A stretch of DNA of 62,270 nt, filler included. It is 10 parts of 10 records of this genome, joined end to end, with 100 filler letters (N's around TTAATTAATTAA, not from the genome) between each part and the next. Parts side by side here need not be neighbours in the genome. Positions count along the whole stretch, not along the records: positions 42,457 to 48,520 come from SRR7504441_14755; 9 more parts are not named here. One strand, written 5' to 3'. Within the stretch, counting starts at the first letter, position 1. Each line of letters starts with the position of its first letter. This document shows, in pieces, positions 42,457 through 48,520 of the stretch. Both the position numbers and the translations under genes were made by a program. The notes beneath the pieces are model-generated. The model ran no database searches and was not told where the DNA came from. It saw only the letters and a program-made list of their open reading frames with translations.

Positions 42457-45400
42457 CCCCCCCCGGGCCCAGGCCGAGAAGGCCGCGCGGGTGGGTCCGG
42501 CCGTTGGTTTGTCCGTTGACGCCGGAGGGCAGCCGCCGCTGCAGACCATCGGACAATCGTCGCCGCTCAAGCAGAGCCGGGCGCTGCTGGCCGAGAAGAA
42601 GGTAACGGACTGTGCTATAAATAGAATGACAACGGACGGCAGGCGCTGGATATGCAGCTGCGAGAGCGCGAGAGCTCCGACCGAGCGCTGAGCCGGTGAT
42701 TTATGCTGATTTATGATTTCTCACGGGTCGGCCAGCGAGCGCGATCGGCTCCAGAAGTCGTTCAACGAGCTGGAAGAGGTGGCGGTTGGGATTTAACGGC
42801 GTTCCAACGGAAACGGCCAGGTTTGGGCGCCGATCGGAGATTTCAAGTACGCGGCGTGTGAAATCGTCTCGGTTGATCCTCATCAAATCGTGCTCATCCG
42901 GAAGGATACCAAGGCGGCTATTAATAGATGTCCGTTGGGAGTAACGGAATAACGGCAGGAGTGCCTGGAGCGCAGCCTGGATGAGCTGCTGCCGGAGGAT
43001 CCGGGCGCGCGCGAGCCACCTGCAAACCTGGTCGAACTGCACAGGATTCAGGAGACACAGCTGCTCGAGGCCACCCGCTACAAGGCGGCCGTTGGGATAT
43101 ATATATAGCCATATGACCGTTGGGACAGGCCAATCAGAACCAATTCTCCACGCTTTGTGGCCCGAACGCGATCGCTCTCTGCAAAGGAGGTGACAGAGAG
43201 GGCGCCATTATTATAATTATTGTTATGATCACCACCCGCTCTAAATTAACGGAATACGGGCAGGCCCGGGGCTGTTGGACGATACAGACACCCACCCGAG
43301 CCGGCTGGAAGCTTTGCTCGACCTTGTCAGGCAGACCAGACGGCGGGCCGTGACGGACGGCCGGGTAGTAGCATCACGGCAGGAGCGGATTCTAACGGAA
43401 TTTCCAGGTGAGGACGTTCGTTTGTTTGGGGGTCTCGGGCTCTGGGAAGAGCCTGGCGTCGCGGGCGATCACACAGGTGTGCATAGTTGTTTGATTTATT
43501 GATTTATTGATTAATCCGGTGGTCAGGCGATAATCCAGCCCGACCCCGCCACCGGCCACCTTCCCAACGATCGAGTGCTTACTCTGAGCGCCGCCATGAC
43601 CACTGTGCTCGATGCCTTCGGGTGCGATTATGACTGATTTATTGATTATTAATTCATCCGGGCAGCTGCTGTGCAAGCGGGCAGACACGTAACTCTTCAA
43701 GGTTCGGCGCTTTGTATGAGCTACAACTATCCAAGTGCCGCGCGCCCGACCCGGCGTCGCCCCCAGACGAGAAATGGCTGATGGACGGCTCCGAGGTGTG
43801 ACTGATTTTAATTCAATTTCGATTTAATCCGGTGGCAGGTGTCTGGAATCTCTCTAAGCACTTTCGGGCTGGAGACACACACGGTGATTCGAATCAATCC
43901 CCAACCGCTTTTTTAACGGCAACGGCAGGTTGTGGAGCAGCTGCCTGGTCAGAGCAACTTCAACGTCTTTTACCTGCTCTGCCACTCGTGTCAAGAGGAA
44001 GGTGGCCCGATCTGGCTTAATAAGCGAATTAATCCGCCGGCCCAGGCGCCGGGCTAGAAGCTCTAAAGCTCCGAGCTTCGGCCAACTTTAACTTCCTCAA
44101 AAACGCCGCCCCGCCCGGCAAACCGACCGAGGCAGTGTCGCAGTTCATCGCGCTCCAGGCCAGCTGGGTGGTCGGGTGGGATTGAAGGTTGGAGCAGGGA
44201 GCGATGGAGGAGATGCTGTTCGACGTGGTCGAAATCGAGGTCCCAACCGCATTTCCAACGGCTTTTAACGGAATTTCAGGCCGCCTGGTGTGTGCTCGCG
44301 GCCATTCTGCACCTGGGGCAACTCGAGTTCGGTGCGCTGTGCTAAAAATAGCCGGAAATTCCGAACTGAATCCCAACTGACAGTGCTCGGGACCGACGGC
44401 GTGACAGCCCAGCCGATCTCCACTGTCAAGACAGGTGCTTCTGTGCTATAAATAGCCGGATTCTAACTGCATCCAACGGACAGTGGCCATGCTGCTGAAG
44501 ATTGACGCGGTCAAGGCCCACACCGAGCTGTGCTCGCTCGGAGACAAGTGGGACAAGGTATCCCAACGGCTTTTAACGGCATTTACAACGGCATTCAGGT
44601 GATGGGTGCCCGGTACGCGCGTCCGGAGCTGGCGGCGTGCGCCAGCCGCGACGCGCTGTGCCGCATTCTGTACCAGCGGCTGTTCAACTTCATCGTGCAG
44701 CGAGTGAACGACACGCTGTGCGCCGAGCAATCGGACGGTTTTCTAACGGCATTTAACGACATCTAACGGCATTCAGGTATCCTGGCGGTGCTGGATCCTC
44801 CGGGCGGGCTGGCCCAGAGCGGAGCGGGTGGGCTCGGGTCGATGCAGGTGGTTTATTTATAGATTTAATTCTAATTGAATCTGTGCAGCTGCTGCTGAGG
44901 AACTTCTCACACGAGCGAATGCAGCAGCACTTTTGTCAGCAGGCAACCGACACTTAACTGCATTTTAACGGCATTGCTAAGCAGTGTAAGGTGTAGTTTG
45001 CCGCCATTGCTGAATCCCCAACCGCCTTGATTAACTGCTTTCGGTTGCAGATGTTCGTGCTACAGAAGAATCGGATGAAGGAAGAGGGCATCGTCTCCCT
45101 CAACGATCTCGAGTTCCCAGACAACGACCAGGCGGCTCGATCTAAAAATAGAACAATCTCAACGGTTTCCGTTGCCAGGTGCTCGAACTGCTCGAGAGAA
45201 GGAGCAGCGGAATGCTCGGGATAATCGAAGAGGTCGAGGGCCTTCCGCAGGTGCAACAATCTATAAATAACCCAGTCCCAACGGACTTTTGTGCAGTCGC
45301 GGCCAGAGGCGCTGTTCCAGAAGCTTCAATCTCTGTTCACAGGGCACCCGAACTTTGTGTCCAGCCAGCCGGAGCGTGGCACTCGGCTGTGCACGGTCGA

Positions 45401-48400
45401 ACATTCGTTCGGCGCTTGCACGTACAGCGTCAGCTCATTCCTGGACATTGAAGGCGACGACTCGTTCACTCCGGCACTCAAGCTGTTAGAGGGCACCCAG
45501 TCGGAGCTGCTGAATTCGCTATTTCCGGCGCTGGTGCAGTTGTAGTGTTAACACTGGCTGATTAATCCCAACCGCAGACTCTCGGGGACGATTCGTATGG
45601 GCTGGCAAGCTCCATCTCCAAAGCCAGTTATCTCAAGTCACAGCTCGCTTCGGTCAAGCAGCTGGTCGGGTGACTGTTAAGCGCACCTGCCCGATTAGGA
45701 AACAGCTGTTAACTAACTGCTCTTAACACAGGCCTTCGCTCAGCATCTTTGTGCACTGCCTCGCTACAACTGCCGACGGCGAAGGCCCCCGCCAGCCAGA
45801 AGCGCGATATCCTTTCGACCCGGTGAGTGCAGCGCCGGCTAGTTGTGGCTGAGCATGGCGCAGGCGCACGTGCAACAGCAGCTGCGGCATGGGGCGGTGC
45901 TGGCTTCGCTCCAGTGGCAGCGGTTTGGTTATCCGATCTCGATGCCGGTCGACGACTTCTGGGATCGGTAAATACCAATAATAATAATAATTGCTAGTAA
46001 TAATAAGAACATAAGCAATGCCTGTAAGCCTATACATAGCATAGCATAGCTCTCTCCAGGATCTGGTACGGACACTGAACTCAAAACGTCTGTTGTGTAC
46101 AGTTACTACCATCTAGGCAACATGCGCCCGCTGTCTGAGACCCACCCTCTACCCAACGGGAGCAAGAAAGAAGCCGTTGCTGTCATCCTGGGCAAATGCC
46201 CCTTCGACCAGCACCACTGGAGGATCGGCACCCACTCTGTCTTCCTTAGACCGAAACCTCTCCATGTTCTGGAGGAGCTTCGGAAGGTTAACAACAGTTA
46301 GTGTCACACTAATCCCCAACCGCAGGCCATCGAGTGGAGCGCCGCCTCCTGCATCGCCGCCCGGATCAAGAAGCAGCGCATGTGACTGTCACAGCTTAAC
46401 ACTGTTTAATCAATCCCAACCGACAGGTACCGGTTCTTCCACGCGCGCAAGCAGGCTTTGCGGATGCTCCAGGTTTCCGTTAAAAGCCGTTAGAAAGCCG
46501 GCGAGCTGTGTGGCAGCCGTTTGTGCGGGGGGTGCTCACCAGGCAGCTGTACCAACGGGCGCTCGAAGGCGCATTTATGACTTTCTCCGACCGAGAATCG
46601 TCCAGTAACTGCTCGTACAGTTGTATAGTAGTGTACAGTGTATGGTGTAAGCACTTGGGTGGCACTAGGAGCCCTAGCCCTAGCCCTGGGCCTCTAGCAA
46701 GCGAGGCTGGTGCAGCATACAACCACGCAAAGCGGCTGGAGTCCGACAACGAGGCTCGTGAGCTGGCGGCGATGGCAGCTGAGGAGGAGCAATCCAAGGC
46801 ACCCGGGCGGTGCTATTGTTAGATCAGCCCGGGGTGCAGGTGGCCTGGGTGAAGATCGAAGCCGCGGAGTTACAGGAAGCGGCAAATATCGTGGCAATGT
46901 ACGATGCCAAGGTATTAATCCTCGCTAATAATAATAATAATACTCGTGGTGATTGTGCGGCGGTGTGTGACGTGGGTGGTGCAGGTGGAAGGTGAGGCGC
47001 TCAACGCTGTCTGGCGGCTGGAGCGGCTCACTGATGACATGGACGAGAACTCGCGCTGCTACTTCACGGTATGATAAACAGCTATAGCTAGTACGGGGGC
47101 TGAGTGCGGCTCAGGACCCTGCAGTGGAGCCGATGACAGTAGCGCCAGGATGCGAAGTGTACGGCCCTGCTGACCATACACACCAGCATCCGTGACAAAC
47201 ACCAAACCGATAGTCAACTGACACGGCCGCAGATACTCAGATTTCCACGAGATTGCAGCGCTGGCTGTGGACGCTGTGCGGTCGATTACAACTGACGTGA
47301 CCGAACGGGTGATCACGAGGGCGGAGGCGGAGCTCGAAAGGTTAACAGCGCATTCCCGATTAGGAAGGTGACGCGTGTTAACTCAGGACGCACCGGGAGG
47401 AGAACACGGCTGCGGCGACCATCCAGCACATGGAGAATGAGGACAAGTACATCAAGGCGGTCGAGGCGGCGCTCGCGGCCCGTGTGGTGTTAACGCCACC
47501 TTCCCGATTGGGCGTGATCGGTTAACAGGTGCTCACGCCCGGCCAAGAGCTTAACATGATGATTCAAGCCGAGTACGGGATGCGATTCAGGCAGCCTCCT
47601 GTGCTATTTATAGACAGTTCCAACGGCATTTGCAGGCAGCTGATCGAGGGCAACCGGAAGGCGATGGAGGAGATGGAGAAGCTCCGGCCTCCGGCGGTAT
47701 GTTAACACGTGTTCCCGATTAGGAAGGTAACACTGACGCAGGACGAGATCGCGTTCGAGCCGGATGCCGTTGACGGGCACAAGACGGTTAGGTTGAATGG
47801 TTATAACGGACTGAGTAGCTGCAGGCGGGCGGAGACTTGTTTGAAATGCTCAAGAAGGAGTGCGACAAGGCGATCGACATGGTATGTTAACAGCCGCTTC
47901 CTAATTAGGAAGGTAACACCGGCCGGCAGGTGGCTAGTGAGGCCGAGATCCACAAGAATCAGGAGATCAACCAAGCATCCAAAGAGCTCGGGCAGCGGCA
48001 GGTGTTAAGAGCACCTTCCTAATCCGGAAGTGGTGTTAAGCTATGTCACGGCAGAGCGGGCTGATTGTGGACGAGATTGTGGACGCGATTGTCCAACTGG
48101 CCGAGCAGCAGGTGTTAAGAGCACCTTCCTAATTAGGAAGCTGACACTTAACAGGGCGAATATAACAAAATGGTCAAGAAATCCATCGAAATCAAAGAAC
48201 GTCGAAAGCGCGAGATCGACACCCTCAAAACAGCCCAGACGCTCCAGATGCAGGTGTTAACAGCGCTTGCCTAATCAGGAAGGTAACCCGTTAACACAGG
48301 AGGAGATGGTCCAGCAAGACAAAGACCGGGCCCAGCGGCGCGCCGACCGTCGCGCTCGGCAGGTAGTGTCGCCAGCCCTGAGCTGTGTGGTGGCTGAGCG

Positions 48401-48520
48401 GAGCACAGGAGGCTGAGGCAGCCAAGGCGGCCAAGAAGGCGGCCGACAAGGAGGCAGCTCGGGCGGCCAAGGCTGCCGCGGATGCCGAGGAGGAGGAGGA
48501 AGTGAAGGTGTCGGTTGGGG
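42457..48520 (+). CDS. Divergent myosin (SH3-like N-terminus, motor domain, IQ motifs, helical tail), both ends truncated, ~45 introns
   Basis: Manual splicing gives one open frame with GVSGSGKS (P-loop), LDAFG...NSSRFG (switch I), SNFNVFYLL, LAAILHLG, RDALCRILYQRLF, NFSHERMQQHF, FGYP, IGTHSVFLR, LQPFVRGVLTR (IQ). Confidence 0.88.
42602..42642 (+). repeat. Motif intron, family B/C (TGTGCTATAAATAG + AACGG)
   Basis: 41-nt GT-AG intron restoring frame; shares core with 44332-44383, 44435-44483, 45132-45178, 45251-45296, 47591-47635. Confidence 0.65.
43477..43838 (+). repeat. Three adjacent family D introns (TGATTT...TAATCC/CATCC-GG): 43477-43526, 43622-43665, 43796-43838; also 42696-42735
   Basis: Shared TGATTT(A/T) repeats and ATCCGG(TGG)..CAG 3' ends. 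Confidence 0.65.
44240..44776 (+). repeat. Family C introns built of tandem YAACGGCWTT units: 44240-44279, 44558-44598, 44738-44776
   Basis: e.g. GTATCCCAACGGCTTTTAACGGCATTTACAACGGCATTCAG; a reverse-complement copy lies in intron 46473-46516. Confidence 0.7.
44332..44483 (+). repeat. Two highly similar adjacent family B introns (44332-44383, 44435-44483)
   Basis: Both read GTGC..CTGTGCTAWAAATAGCCGGA..TTC..AACTG.ATCC.AAC.GACAG. Confidence 0.75.
45670..45731 (+). mobile_element. Introner-like family A intron (GTTAA...CCCGATTAGGAA...TTAAC.CAG)
   Basis: 62-nt intron sharing core and ends with the 47341-48299 cluster. Mobility is inferred. Confidence 0.5.
47341..48299 (+). mobile_element. Cluster of seven introner-like family A introns: 47341-47386, 47487-47528, 47697-47741, 47882-47929, 48002-48054, 48112-48154, 48254-48299
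   Basis: Consensus GT(A/G)(T)GTTAA(C/G)-N6-8-TTCCYRATTAGGAAG-N-(GT)TAAC-CAG; quasi-palindromic. 48002 and 48112 share their first 22 nt exactly. Confidence 0.6.

What the first reader, a model, noticed from the sequence alone, without database searches (positions are those of the whole stretch)
42696..48299. Intron families are spatially zoned along the gene
Family D concentrates at 42696-44045, B/C at 42602-45296, the ATCCCAACCG-ended type at 45534-46426, and A at 47341-48299. Neighbouring introns are often each other's closest match (44332/44435; 44558/44738; 48002/48112). Random transposition would not predict this. It suggests local copying (reverse splicing into the same transcript, local hopping, gene conversion) or position-specific selection.
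Basis: partly seen in the sequence, partly recalled or inferred. Interest (0 to 1): 0.72.

Follow-up and report, generated by a model that had tools for sequence, protein, structure and literature searches.

The report
Tiny introns copied locally within gene
One myosin-like gene of an uncultured microbial eukaryote is cut up by about 44 very short introns whose sequence families each occupy their own stretch of the gene, which is best explained by introns being copied to nearby sites and bears on how new introns arise.

Summary
The stretch is one 6,064-base contig (42457-48520). It carries a fragment of a divergent myosin-like gene, which my gene model splits with 44 GT/GC-AG introns (median 44 nt).

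- **Similarity falls with distance.** Mantel r = -0.22, reached by 0 of 5000 permutations. The result survives dropping any one family, dropping 7 uncertain introns, a 7-mer measure and a composition control.
- **Related pairs are close.** They make up 31 of 276 pairs at 1 kb or less, and 0 of 267 pairs beyond 3 kb.
- **The families are confined to this contig.** None appears in the other nine contigs (56 kb) or in the public collections scanned.
- **Segmental duplication is not supported.** Exon flanks of same-family introns are unrelated.
- **Pure reverse splicing does not fit everything.** One clear inverted copy and several mosaic introns argue against it.
- **Transposition is unproven.** There is no target-site duplication beyond the splice consensus.
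- **A repeat-specific transposase alone fits poorly.** Family A and intron 44943 have palindromic MITE-like ends. Families D and AACGG lack terminal inverted repeats, and the B/C core word is nearly its own reverse complement.

My reading: short-range DNA-level copying of intron sequence, most likely repair- or replication-templated, kept because the copy can be spliced out. Splicing was not observed, and no relatives or whole genome were available. Earlier unchecked notes of this scan describe similar local intron copying elsewhere in this genome. Verdict: new variant of a known kind.

The parts
42457..48520 (+). Contig with a fragment of a divergent myosin-like gene, open at both ends. My model has 45 exon pieces and 44 introns.
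   Evidence: The linkers define the contig. A DP gene model with hand fixes gives a 1305-aa open frame. Exons 44599-44736 and 45297-45533 hit Pfam Myosin_head at profile positions 328-359 and 457-529, in order along the profile, with E = 1e-6 and 1e-5.
42696..44045 (+). Family D zone. Introns 42696-42735, 43477-43526, 43622-43665 and 43796-43838, with 44002-44045 as a weaker member. They carry TGATTTA repeats and a TTAATCC-GG tail.
   Evidence: Score graph, alignment A2, 8-10-nt tandem arrays.
43365..45050 (+). AACGG-repeat family zone. Introns 43365, 43884, 44240, 44558, 44738 and 44943-45050 are arrays of a 10-12-nt unit containing TAACGG, a branch-site-like word.
   Evidence: These introns are unstructured (mean MFE z = +0.85).
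46473..46516 (+). Intron holding an inverted copy of the AACGG-family interior. 21 of 22 bases match intron 44240 and 21 of 23 match intron 44738, on the opposite strand.
   Evidence: reverse-complement scores 39, 33 and 30 against a null maximum of 24.
44332..44483 (+). B/C pair. Introns 44332-44383 and 44435-44483 are adjacent, reciprocal best matches, and homologous end to end. Other B/C-core introns are 42602, 45135 and 45251, with the core reversed in 47601 and 44851.
45534..46426 (+). CCAACCG-ended type. Introns 45534-45577, 46287-46325 and 46382-46426 are mosaics with a GTTAAC-type 5' part and an AATCCCAACCG 3' part.
   Evidence: Module map, alignment.
47341..48299 (+). Family A zone. 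Seven palindromic introns of 42-53 nt: 47341, 47487, 47697, 47882, 48002, 48112 and 48254. They have GTTAAC/GTTAAG arms around a CCTAATTAGG-type core. The zone is interleaved with the unrelated introns 47601 and 47787.
   Evidence: Alignment A1, scores. Hairpin MFE z reaches -4.37, with 0 of 200 shuffles as stable.
45670..45731 (+). Outlying family-A-like intron of 62 nt, 1.6 kb upstream of the A zone.
   Evidence: Scores of 26-33 to seven of the other A members and 24 to 48002, alignment A1.
44943..45050 (+). A 108-nt GC-AG intron with an 8-nt terminal inverted repeat followed by AG. It is a composite of AACGG, CCAACCG and GTTAAC modules.
   Evidence: Fold, module map. It must be removed whole to keep a junction that matches a myosin motif I recall from memory.

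Best explanation
The introns of this gene multiplied in place. Short intron sequences of about 40-50 nt were copied repeatedly, at the DNA level, into new AG|G sites mostly within about 1 kb of their source. Each lineage of copies therefore occupies its own zone of the gene.

The copying step I favour does not depend on the sequence copied. A break or stalled fork in an exon is repaired with filler synthesised from a nearby template. Only fillers that copy an intron, and so bring a 5' site, a branch-site-like TAAC word and a CAG end, can be spliced out and survive in coding sequence. The same short-range copying also acts inside introns, giving the 8-12-nt tandem arrays.

Shown: the zoning, the confinement of repeats to introns, the absence of exon duplication, at least one inverted partial copy, and the mosaics.

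Inferred: that the segments are spliced, that the copies are gains rather than homogenised old introns, and the repair enzymology.

I put some form of local copying at about 0.8. The confidence given below is for the repair- or replication-templated version.
For: - Distance decay of similarity, with all controls passed.
- 53 of 66 repeated 12-mers lie wholly in introns, and only 6 repeated 12-mers remain in the spliced sequence.
- Exon flanks of 62 same-family pairs are no more alike than those of 884 other pairs (Mann-Whitney p = 0.22 and 0.55).
- At least five sequence-unrelated families show the same local behaviour. D and AACGG lack terminal inverted repeats. This fits a mechanism that does not recognise the sequence it copies.
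- Partial and mosaic copies exist: introns 43884, 44332/44435, 44943, 45534, 46287 and 46382 combine modules of neighbouring zones.
- An inverted interior copy (21 of 22 bases) sits in intron 46473, and core words occur reversed in introns 44851, 47601 and 42779-43128.
- Seven introns hold 8-12-nt tandem arrays.
- The families are absent from the other nine contigs. Family A is absent from three public collections: 13 + 2 + 0 hits, none element-like.
- Mosaic new introns made by break repair are described in Daphnia (PMC4202315, passages read).
Against: - There is no flanking direct repeat or microhomology beyond the splice consensus. The mean is 2.68 nt against 2.70 nt for mismatched donor-acceptor pairs, and 3 of 44 introns reach 5 nt or more against 5.35 expected. 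The Daphnia-type footprint is therefore not seen.
- Non-palindromic modules are strongly biased to one strand (TAACGG 13:3, D words 5:0). RNA-level copying would also give this, although selection for spliceability would too.
- The strong inverted pairs lie 0.4-5 kb apart (median about 2.3 kb). They do not show the short-range clustering of direct pairs.
- Family A and intron 44943 do have transposon-like terminal inverted repeats.
- The within-family stepping-stone pattern is only a trend (245 of 3000).
- Splicing was not observed, no relatives were found, and only one gene was examined.
Confidence: 0.4

Rival explanations
1. Transposase-driven local hopping. The introns are miniature inverted-repeat elements (introners) moved by a transposase encoded elsewhere, which reinserts mostly near the donor site.
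For: - Family A members are 42-53-nt palindromes with GTTAAC/GTTAAG arms.
- Intron 44943 has an 8-nt terminal inverted repeat followed by AG.
- The layout AG|element|AG fits a 2-3-nt duplication that supplies the 3' splice site.
- Hairpin introners with inverted and direct repeats are described in Amoebophrya (PMC7789003, passages read). Introners in many eukaryotes are described in PMC9860276 (passages read).
Against: - A 2-4-nt duplication cannot be told apart from the splice consensus.
- Families D and AACGG lack terminal inverted repeats, yet are zoned in the same way. The B/C core word is nearly its own reverse complement, and as a word it is not significantly clustered.
- The distance between the arms and the splice sites varies by 0-5 nt at the 5' end and 0-14 nt at the 3' end.
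- There are no copies in the other 56 kb or in the collections scanned.
- No paper in the library holds both 'introners' and 'local hopping'.
Confidence: 0.2
2. Reverse splicing in cis. An excised intron reinserts into the same pre-mRNA near its origin, and the product is reverse-transcribed and recombined into the gene.
For: - It explains confinement to one transcript, the insertion at AG|G sites, the absence of a duplication, the strong same-strand bias, and the end-to-end homology of pairs such as 44332/44435 and 47697/47882.
- It has been proposed for same-gene duplicates in fungi (PMC3609843, passages read).
- It has been proposed for Oikopleura (cited within PMC4202315; the original paper was not read).
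Against: - It cannot make the inverted copy in intron 46473 or the reversed core words.
- Mosaic and partial copies exist.
- Palindromic structure has no role in this model.
- Recombination with cDNA should also delete neighbouring introns, yet intron density is even along the 6 kb (exon-length CV 0.45). This last point is an inference.
- An unchecked note of this scan (e1-7377949) reports the same intron in two neighbouring, unrelated genes.
Confidence: 0.12
3. Homogenisation. The introns are old, and short-range gene conversion between neighbours has made them alike.
For: It is a local process that does not depend on sequence and would give distance decay. The identical 5' halves with diverged 3' halves in 48002/48112 look like a conversion tract.
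Against: - Conversion needs pre-existing homology, but the flanking exons are unrelated and the introns are only about 44 nt long.
- One intron per 89 nt of coding sequence, with 31 of 44 in phase 0, is unlike an inherited intron set. This is an inference.
Confidence: 0.07
4. Segmental tandem duplication of exon-plus-intron units inside the gene.
For: Half of the same-gene intron duplicates in fungi arise this way (PMC3609843, passages read). The tail of this gene is a repetitive coiled-coil-like region.
Against: The 40-nt exon flanks of same-family introns are no more alike than those of other pairs (p = 0.22 and 0.55). Only 6 repeated 12-mers remain in the spliced sequence.
Confidence: 0.02
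5. No copying. The likeness reflects shared splicing signals or position-specific selection, or it is an artefact of my gene model.
For: In a 44-nt intron the 5' site, a TAAC-type branch word (27 of 44 introns have one 5-30 nt from the 3' end) and the CAG end take up much of the length. The intron boundaries were predicted, not observed.
Against: - Matches reach 21-37 aligned bases, far above shuffled controls.
- The zoning survives a measure that needs no alignment, and it survives dropping the uncertain introns.
- The excess of repeated 12-mers in this contig does not depend on the gene model: 109 pairs against 2-46 in the other contigs.
- Functional words would be equally useful anywhere in the gene.
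Confidence: 0.04

Closest known systems
Same-gene intron duplications (SGD) and low-copy near-identical introns of fungi (van der Burgt et al. 2012, as summarised in Collemare et al. 2013, PMC3609843; passages read)
   Same: Near-identical spliceosomal introns are restricted to one gene. Half of the fungal cases lack exon duplication and were attributed to transposition within the transcript.
   Different: Fungal cases are few (at most 16 members per species, 82 in 24 species) and have ordinary length. Here 27 of 44 introns of one gene fall into six families (including a low-complexity AT-rich one), with a zonal layout, inverted and mosaic copies, and a length of about 44 nt.
Introners / introner elements (Micromonas, Aureococcus, dinoflagellates and others; Gozashti et al. 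2022 PMC9860276 and 2025 PMC12130899, passages read; Huff et al. 2016 recalled, not read)
   Same: Repeated intron sequences at non-homologous sites. Some have terminal inverted repeats, no coding capacity, and splice sites at or next to the element ends.
   Different: Introners are defined by many copies dispersed over unrelated genes. These families were found only in this gene. No duplication is demonstrable. The elements are several times shorter. Neither paper's searched passages mention within-gene zoning: 'local', 'nearby' and 'same gene' gave nothing relevant.
Hairpin introner elements of Amoebophrya (Farhat et al. 2021, PMC7789003; passages read)
   Same: Introns whose two ends are inverted repeats of 8-20 nt that form a hairpin. 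They resemble MITEs, and no matching transposase is evident.
   Different: Amoebophrya elements mostly have non-canonical splice sites and 3-5-nt direct repeats, and they are spread over the genome. Here the splice sites are GT/GC-AG, and only family A and a few other introns are palindromic.
New introns from double-strand-break repair in Daphnia (Li et al. 2014, PMC4202315; passages read)
   Same: Inserted filler DNA becomes an intron. The introns show internal direct repeats and mosaic make-up.
   Different: Daphnia neointrons carry short flanking direct repeats, and their source is usually unknown. Here no such repeats exceed chance, and the apparent source is a neighbouring intron.

Membership tests
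Introners / introner elements | Many similar copies in unrelated genes across the genome | tested here: not met
   All family motifs are confined to contig 7. There are 0 element-like copies in the other 56 kb and none in the metagenome, genome or viral collections for family A. No whole genome is held, so the test covers little sequence.
Introners / introner elements | Transposon hallmarks: terminal inverted repeats and a target-site duplication | tested here: inconclusive
   Inverted ends are present in family A and intron 44943. Families D and AACGG have none. The B/C core word is nearly its own reverse complement. Duplication is no greater than in mismatched donor-acceptor controls.
Introners / introner elements | The element is removed as a spliceosomal intron | not testable with these tools
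   GT (40) or GC (4) donors, AG acceptors with C at -3 in 43 of 44 introns, and an open frame only after removal. No RNA run was listed.
Introners / introner elements | Presence/absence of copies between close relatives | not testable with these tools
   No relative of the gene was found.
Same-gene intron duplication (SGD) | Similar introns found only within one gene | tested here: met
   43 related pairs, all within this gene. There are none elsewhere in the window.
Same-gene intron duplication (SGD) | Segmental type: the flanking exon sequence is duplicated too | tested here: not met
   Flank scores of same-family pairs equal those of other pairs.
Break-repair neointrons (Daphnia type) | Short direct repeats flanking the insert | tested here: not met
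   3 of 44 introns have 5 nt or more, against 5.35 expected.
Break-repair neointrons (Daphnia type) | Internal direct repeats and mosaic composition | tested here: met
   Seven introns hold 8-12-nt tandem arrays. Mosaic introns are shown.
Myosin (host gene) | Myosin head domain (Pfam PF00063) | tested here: inconclusive
   2 of 25 single exons tested match, in order along the profile, at E = 1e-6 and 1e-5. Both score below the gathering cut-off (27.8 and 24.5 bits against 33.3), as expected for fragments. P-loop-like and switch-I-like words are seen in the translation and recognised from memory. The spliced protein was not sent to any search tool.

The most novel reading that the evidence does not exclude
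A cis-acting intron-copying process that does not depend on the sequence copied. Breaks in exons are patched with DNA synthesised from the nearest intron, and selection keeps only patches that can be spliced out. Genes that already hold many tiny introns would then become self-amplifying hot spots of intron gain, with families laid down in zones. This would be a route to massive intron gain that needs neither a transposase nor reverse transcription.
Probability: 0.3. Interest if true: 0.8.

Novelty: new variant of a known kind. Interest (0 to 1): 0.6.

Why it matters
How introns multiply is a long-standing question. The two documented routes are dispersed introner transposons and rare break-repair insertions.

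This gene has about one 44-nt intron per 89 coding bases. 27 of the 44 introns belong to families that are confined to zones of about 1-2.5 kb. Most of its introns would then have arisen by short-range copying from their neighbours. That predicts uneven, runaway intron density between genes.

It also gives a directly testable signature: intron similarity should decay with distance, within and across neighbouring genes. That test can be run on any intron-rich protist genome.

Tried and rejected
- **RNA evidence.** No RNA or DNA sequencing run was listed for the contig.
- **Whole genome.** None is held.
- **Relatives of the gene.** The metagenome scan with the 79-aa exon matched 374 pattern stretches, but none was confirmed by tblastn. 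The search for longer homologous proteins scored 47 candidates and found none. Look-alike stretches in other scan windows: none.
- **Family A elsewhere.** The pattern gave 13 metagenome loci, all single matches in 34-50% GC DNA without the second arm. It gave 2 bacterial MAG loci, both unrelated, and 0 viral loci.
- **Gene models discarded.** The minimum-intron and minimum-length DP models merged neighbouring introns or chose wrong frames. The model used comes with hand fixes.
- **Uncertain boundaries.** They remain uncertain for introns 44168, 46600, 46799, 47069 and 47192. These five, together with 45823 and 48363, were dropped in the robustness test.
- **Pfam on short exons.** 19 further exons gave no hits.
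- **Segmental duplication.** Rejected on the flank test.
- **Target-site duplication.** No excess was found.
- **Within-family stepping-stone test.** Not significant.
- **Literature.** The searches found no paper on within-gene zoning of intron families. 'introners' plus 'local hopping' gave 0 papers. The library lacks many subscription papers. Huff et al. 2016 and Denoeud et al. 2010 were not read.


Full report
**What the stretch is**

The window is ten contigs joined by N-runs around a TTAATTAATTAA linker. The finding lies in contig 7 (42457-48520, 6,064 bases). It is the only contig in which no reading frame stays open for more than 163 codons; every other contig has one of at least 190.

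I built the gene model with a dynamic-programming model, using codon usage trained on long open frames from other contigs and an iteratively trained intron composition. Hand fixes followed.

- The + strand model has 44 introns of 29-135 nt. The median is 44 nt, and 36 of 44 lie between 36 and 53 nt.
- There are 40 GT and 4 GC donors. All acceptors are AG, with C at -3 in 43 of 44.
- 31 introns are in phase 0, 5 in phase 1 and 8 in phase 2.
- Removing the introns gives a 1305-codon frame without stops that runs off both contig ends.

Sent singly to Pfam, 2 of 25 exons match the myosin head domain in the right order: profile positions 328-359 and 457-529, with E = 1e-6 and 1e-5. Both score below the gathering cut-off, as expected for fragments. 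The translation also shows P-loop-like and switch-I-like words that I recognise from memory.

Splicing itself was not observed. No sequencing run was listed. Boundaries remain uncertain for five introns (44168, 46600, 46799, 47069 and 47192); the robustness test dropped these together with 45823 and 48363.

**Is the zoning real?**

Yes.

- Local-alignment similarity of intron interiors, with splice dinucleotides trimmed, falls with distance. Mantel r = -0.222 on ranks, and 0 of 5000 label permutations reach it. Reverse-complement similarity gives r = -0.166, also 0 of 5000.
- Counting shared 7-mers gives the same result (r = -0.22, 0 of 3000). Dropping the seven uncertain introns strengthens it (r = -0.292, 0 of 3000).
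- Shuffling each intron in place, which keeps any regional composition trend, leaves r = -0.02 +/- 0.03. None of 100 shuffles reaches the observed value.

Pairs scoring 26 or more define the families; the highest of 2838 shuffled pairs scored 24.

| Family | Members | Note |
|---|---|---|
| B/C | 3 | |
| D | 4 | |
| AACGG-repeat | 7 | one member inverted |
| CCAACCG-ended | 2 | |
| A | 8 | |
| AT-rich | 3 | low-complexity |

- Same-family introns lie on average 7.56 introns apart, against 15.0 +/- 1.5 for shuffled labels (0 of 20000 permutations).
- There are 8 adjacent same-family pairs against 2.86 expected (78 of 20000).
- For 10 of 44 introns the best match is an immediate neighbour, against 1.96 expected (5 of 5000).
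- The signal is not due to one family. It persists after dropping any one family, and after dropping A and D together (r = -0.175, 2 of 2000). It weakens to r = -0.123 (73 of 2000) without A, D and AACGG.
- Related pairs make up 31 of 276 pairs at 1 kb or less, 12 of 403 pairs between 1 and 3 kb, and 0 of 267 pairs beyond 3 kb. The median separation is 665 bp for related pairs against 1842 bp for all pairs.

Points against a neat picture:

- The B/C core word by itself is not significantly clustered (899 of 5000).
- Family A has an outlier at 45670, and the AACGG family has one at 46473.
- Within families, closer copies are only weakly more alike (combined 245 of 3000).
- No second intron-dense gene was available to repeat the test.

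**What the repeats are**

Repeats belong to introns, not exons.

- Of 66 repeated 12-mers in the contig, 53 lie wholly inside predicted introns and 7 of the others straddle a splice junction. The spliced sequence keeps 6.
- The 40-nt exon flanks of 62 same-family pairs are no more alike than those of 884 other pairs (p = 0.22 upstream, 0.55 downstream). Duplication of exon-plus-intron units is therefore not the source.

The families differ in structure.

- Family A introns are small palindromes, with GTTAAC or GTTAAG arms around a CCTAATTAGG-type core (alignment A1). Three of eight fold far better than shuffles (z = -4.37, -2.97 and -2.42). The family mean is -1.54.
- Intron 44943-45050 (108 nt, GC donor) has an 8-nt terminal inverted repeat followed by AG.
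- The AACGG family has no such structure (mean z = +0.85). It consists of 2-3 tandem copies of a 10-12-nt unit.
- Family D holds 8-10-nt arrays.
- The unit word TAACGG resembles a branch site, as does the TTAAC of family A. 27 of 44 introns have such a word 5-30 nt from the 3' end. Part of the likeness is therefore functional, but that does not explain why variants are zoned.

A module map shows a gradient along the gene.

- TAACGG sits in the 5' half: 10 of its 11 carriers lie at or before 44943.
- CCAACCG sits in the middle.
- GTTAAC-type arms sit from 44943 onward.
- Introns at the borders are mosaics. 43884, 44332/44435 and 44943 combine modules. 45534, 46287 and 46382 join a GTTAAC-type 5' part to a CCAACCG tail.

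Orientation is mostly the same as transcription, but not always.

- Intron 46473 holds an inverted copy of the interior of 44240 (21 of 22 bases) and of 44738 (21 of 23 bases).
- The B/C core is reversed in 44851 and 47601.
- CCAACSG-type words are reversed in 42779, 42917 and 43091.
- These strong inverted pairs lie 0.4-5 kb apart, farther than the direct pairs.

**Transposon footprints**

The direct repeat spanning each intron's two ends averages 2.68 nt. When donors are paired with the acceptors of other introns it averages 2.70 nt. Repeats of 5 nt or more occur in 3 of 44 introns against 5.35 expected. A 2-3-nt duplication of AG or CAG would be invisible against the AG|GT...CAG|G consensus. 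Transposition is therefore neither shown nor excluded.

**Distribution outside the gene**

- The family words occur essentially only in contig 7.
- Contig 7 holds 109 repeated 12-mer pairs. The other contigs hold 2-46, and theirs are GC-rich chance or low-complexity words.
- Contig 7 has 6.1 short AT-rich islands per kb against 1.3-2.0 elsewhere.
- A family A pattern found 13 metagenome loci, 2 bacterial MAG loci and 0 viral loci, none element-like.
- The gene itself has no relative in the metagenome scan or the protein search.
- No whole genome is held, so low copy number is inferred from little sequence.

**Mechanism**

Local copying of some kind is well supported. I put it at about 0.8.

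Several sequence-unrelated families behave alike. D and AACGG lack inverted ends. Copies can be partial, mosaic or inverted, and the same introns hold short tandem arrays. For these reasons I favour copying that does not depend on the sequence copied and is templated by replication or repair, filtered by the need to be spliced out (0.4).

| Explanation | My odds | Main point |
|---|---|---|
| Repair- or replication-templated local copying | 0.4 | fits unrelated families, mosaics, inverted copy and tandem arrays |
| Transposase-driven local hopping of MITE-like elements | 0.2 | fits family A best |
| Reverse splicing into the same transcript | 0.12 | explains the same-strand bias and lack of duplication, but not the inverted or mosaic copies |
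| Gene conversion among old introns | 0.07 | |
| Selection or gene-model artefact | 0.04 | |
| Segmental duplication | 0.02 | |

The expected repair footprint, flanking microduplications as in Daphnia (PMC4202315, passages read), is not seen. That counts against my preferred reading.

**Comparison with what is known**

- Same-gene intron duplicates are described in fungi. They are few, and half are segmental (PMC3609843, passages read).
- Introners are by definition dispersed over many genes (PMC9860276 and PMC12130899, passages read).
- Hairpin introners are known in Amoebophrya (PMC7789003, passages read).
- Searches found no description of within-gene zoning of intron families. 'introners' plus 'local hopping' gave 0 papers. 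The library lacks many subscription papers, and Huff et al. 2016 and Denoeud et al. 2010 were not read.
- Earlier unchecked notes of this scan report similar things elsewhere in this genome. They describe palindromic mini-introns clustered in one gene, neighbouring introns sharing words, the same intron in two neighbouring genes, and AACGG-repeat mini-introns. I used them as leads only. My two sequence look-ups of family A and D introns found no look-alikes among noted stretches.

**Verdict**

This is a new variant of known intron-duplication phenomena, notable for its scale within one gene and for its zonal layout.

Noticed in passing
window 1-62270: The window is ten separate contigs joined by runs of N around a TTAATTAATTAA linker. 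Neighbouring 'genes' across a linker are therefore not physically linked.
   Followed up: yes
window 42457-48520 versus the other nine contigs: This contig is an outlier in mini-intron density. It has 6.1 short AT-rich islands per kb against 1.3-2.0 elsewhere, and it is the only contig with no open frame longer than 163 codons. Other genes in the window have long exons.
   Followed up: partly
window 42602-48408 (all 44 introns): 31 of 44 introns are in phase 0, and 43 of 44 have C at -3. Internal exon lengths (42-237 nt, CV 0.45) are more even than random placement would give. This suggests a minimum spacing or a site preference.
   Followed up: partly
window 44943-45050: A 108-nt GC-AG intron with an 8-nt terminal inverted repeat and an inner hairpin. 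It combines words of three families and looks like a nested or composite insertion.
   Followed up: partly
window 48508-48520: The contig ends, just after an AAG, in what looks like the start of a 45th intron (GT followed by a reversed CCAACCG-type word). The assembly may have broken at a repeated intron word.
   Followed up: no
window 48063-48092: A 12-nt unit repeated 2.5 times inside an exon, coding a short peptide repeat in the tail.
   Followed up: no
window 45968-46102 and 46912-46984: Two longer introns (135 and 73 nt) are built around AAT/TAA and CATAG microsatellites. Their mutual score of 30 is probably due to low complexity rather than homology.
   Followed up: partly
window 44777-44850: Where myosins carry the switch II motif (recalled from memory), this protein reads differently (a Pro-Pro-Gly stretch). 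The motor may be divergent or inactive.
   Followed up: no
window 44240-47601 (inverted pairs): Strong inverted intron pairs outside family A lie 0.4-5 kb apart (median about 2.3 kb). Direct related pairs lie closer (median 0.66 kb). I have no explanation for this.
   Followed up: partly
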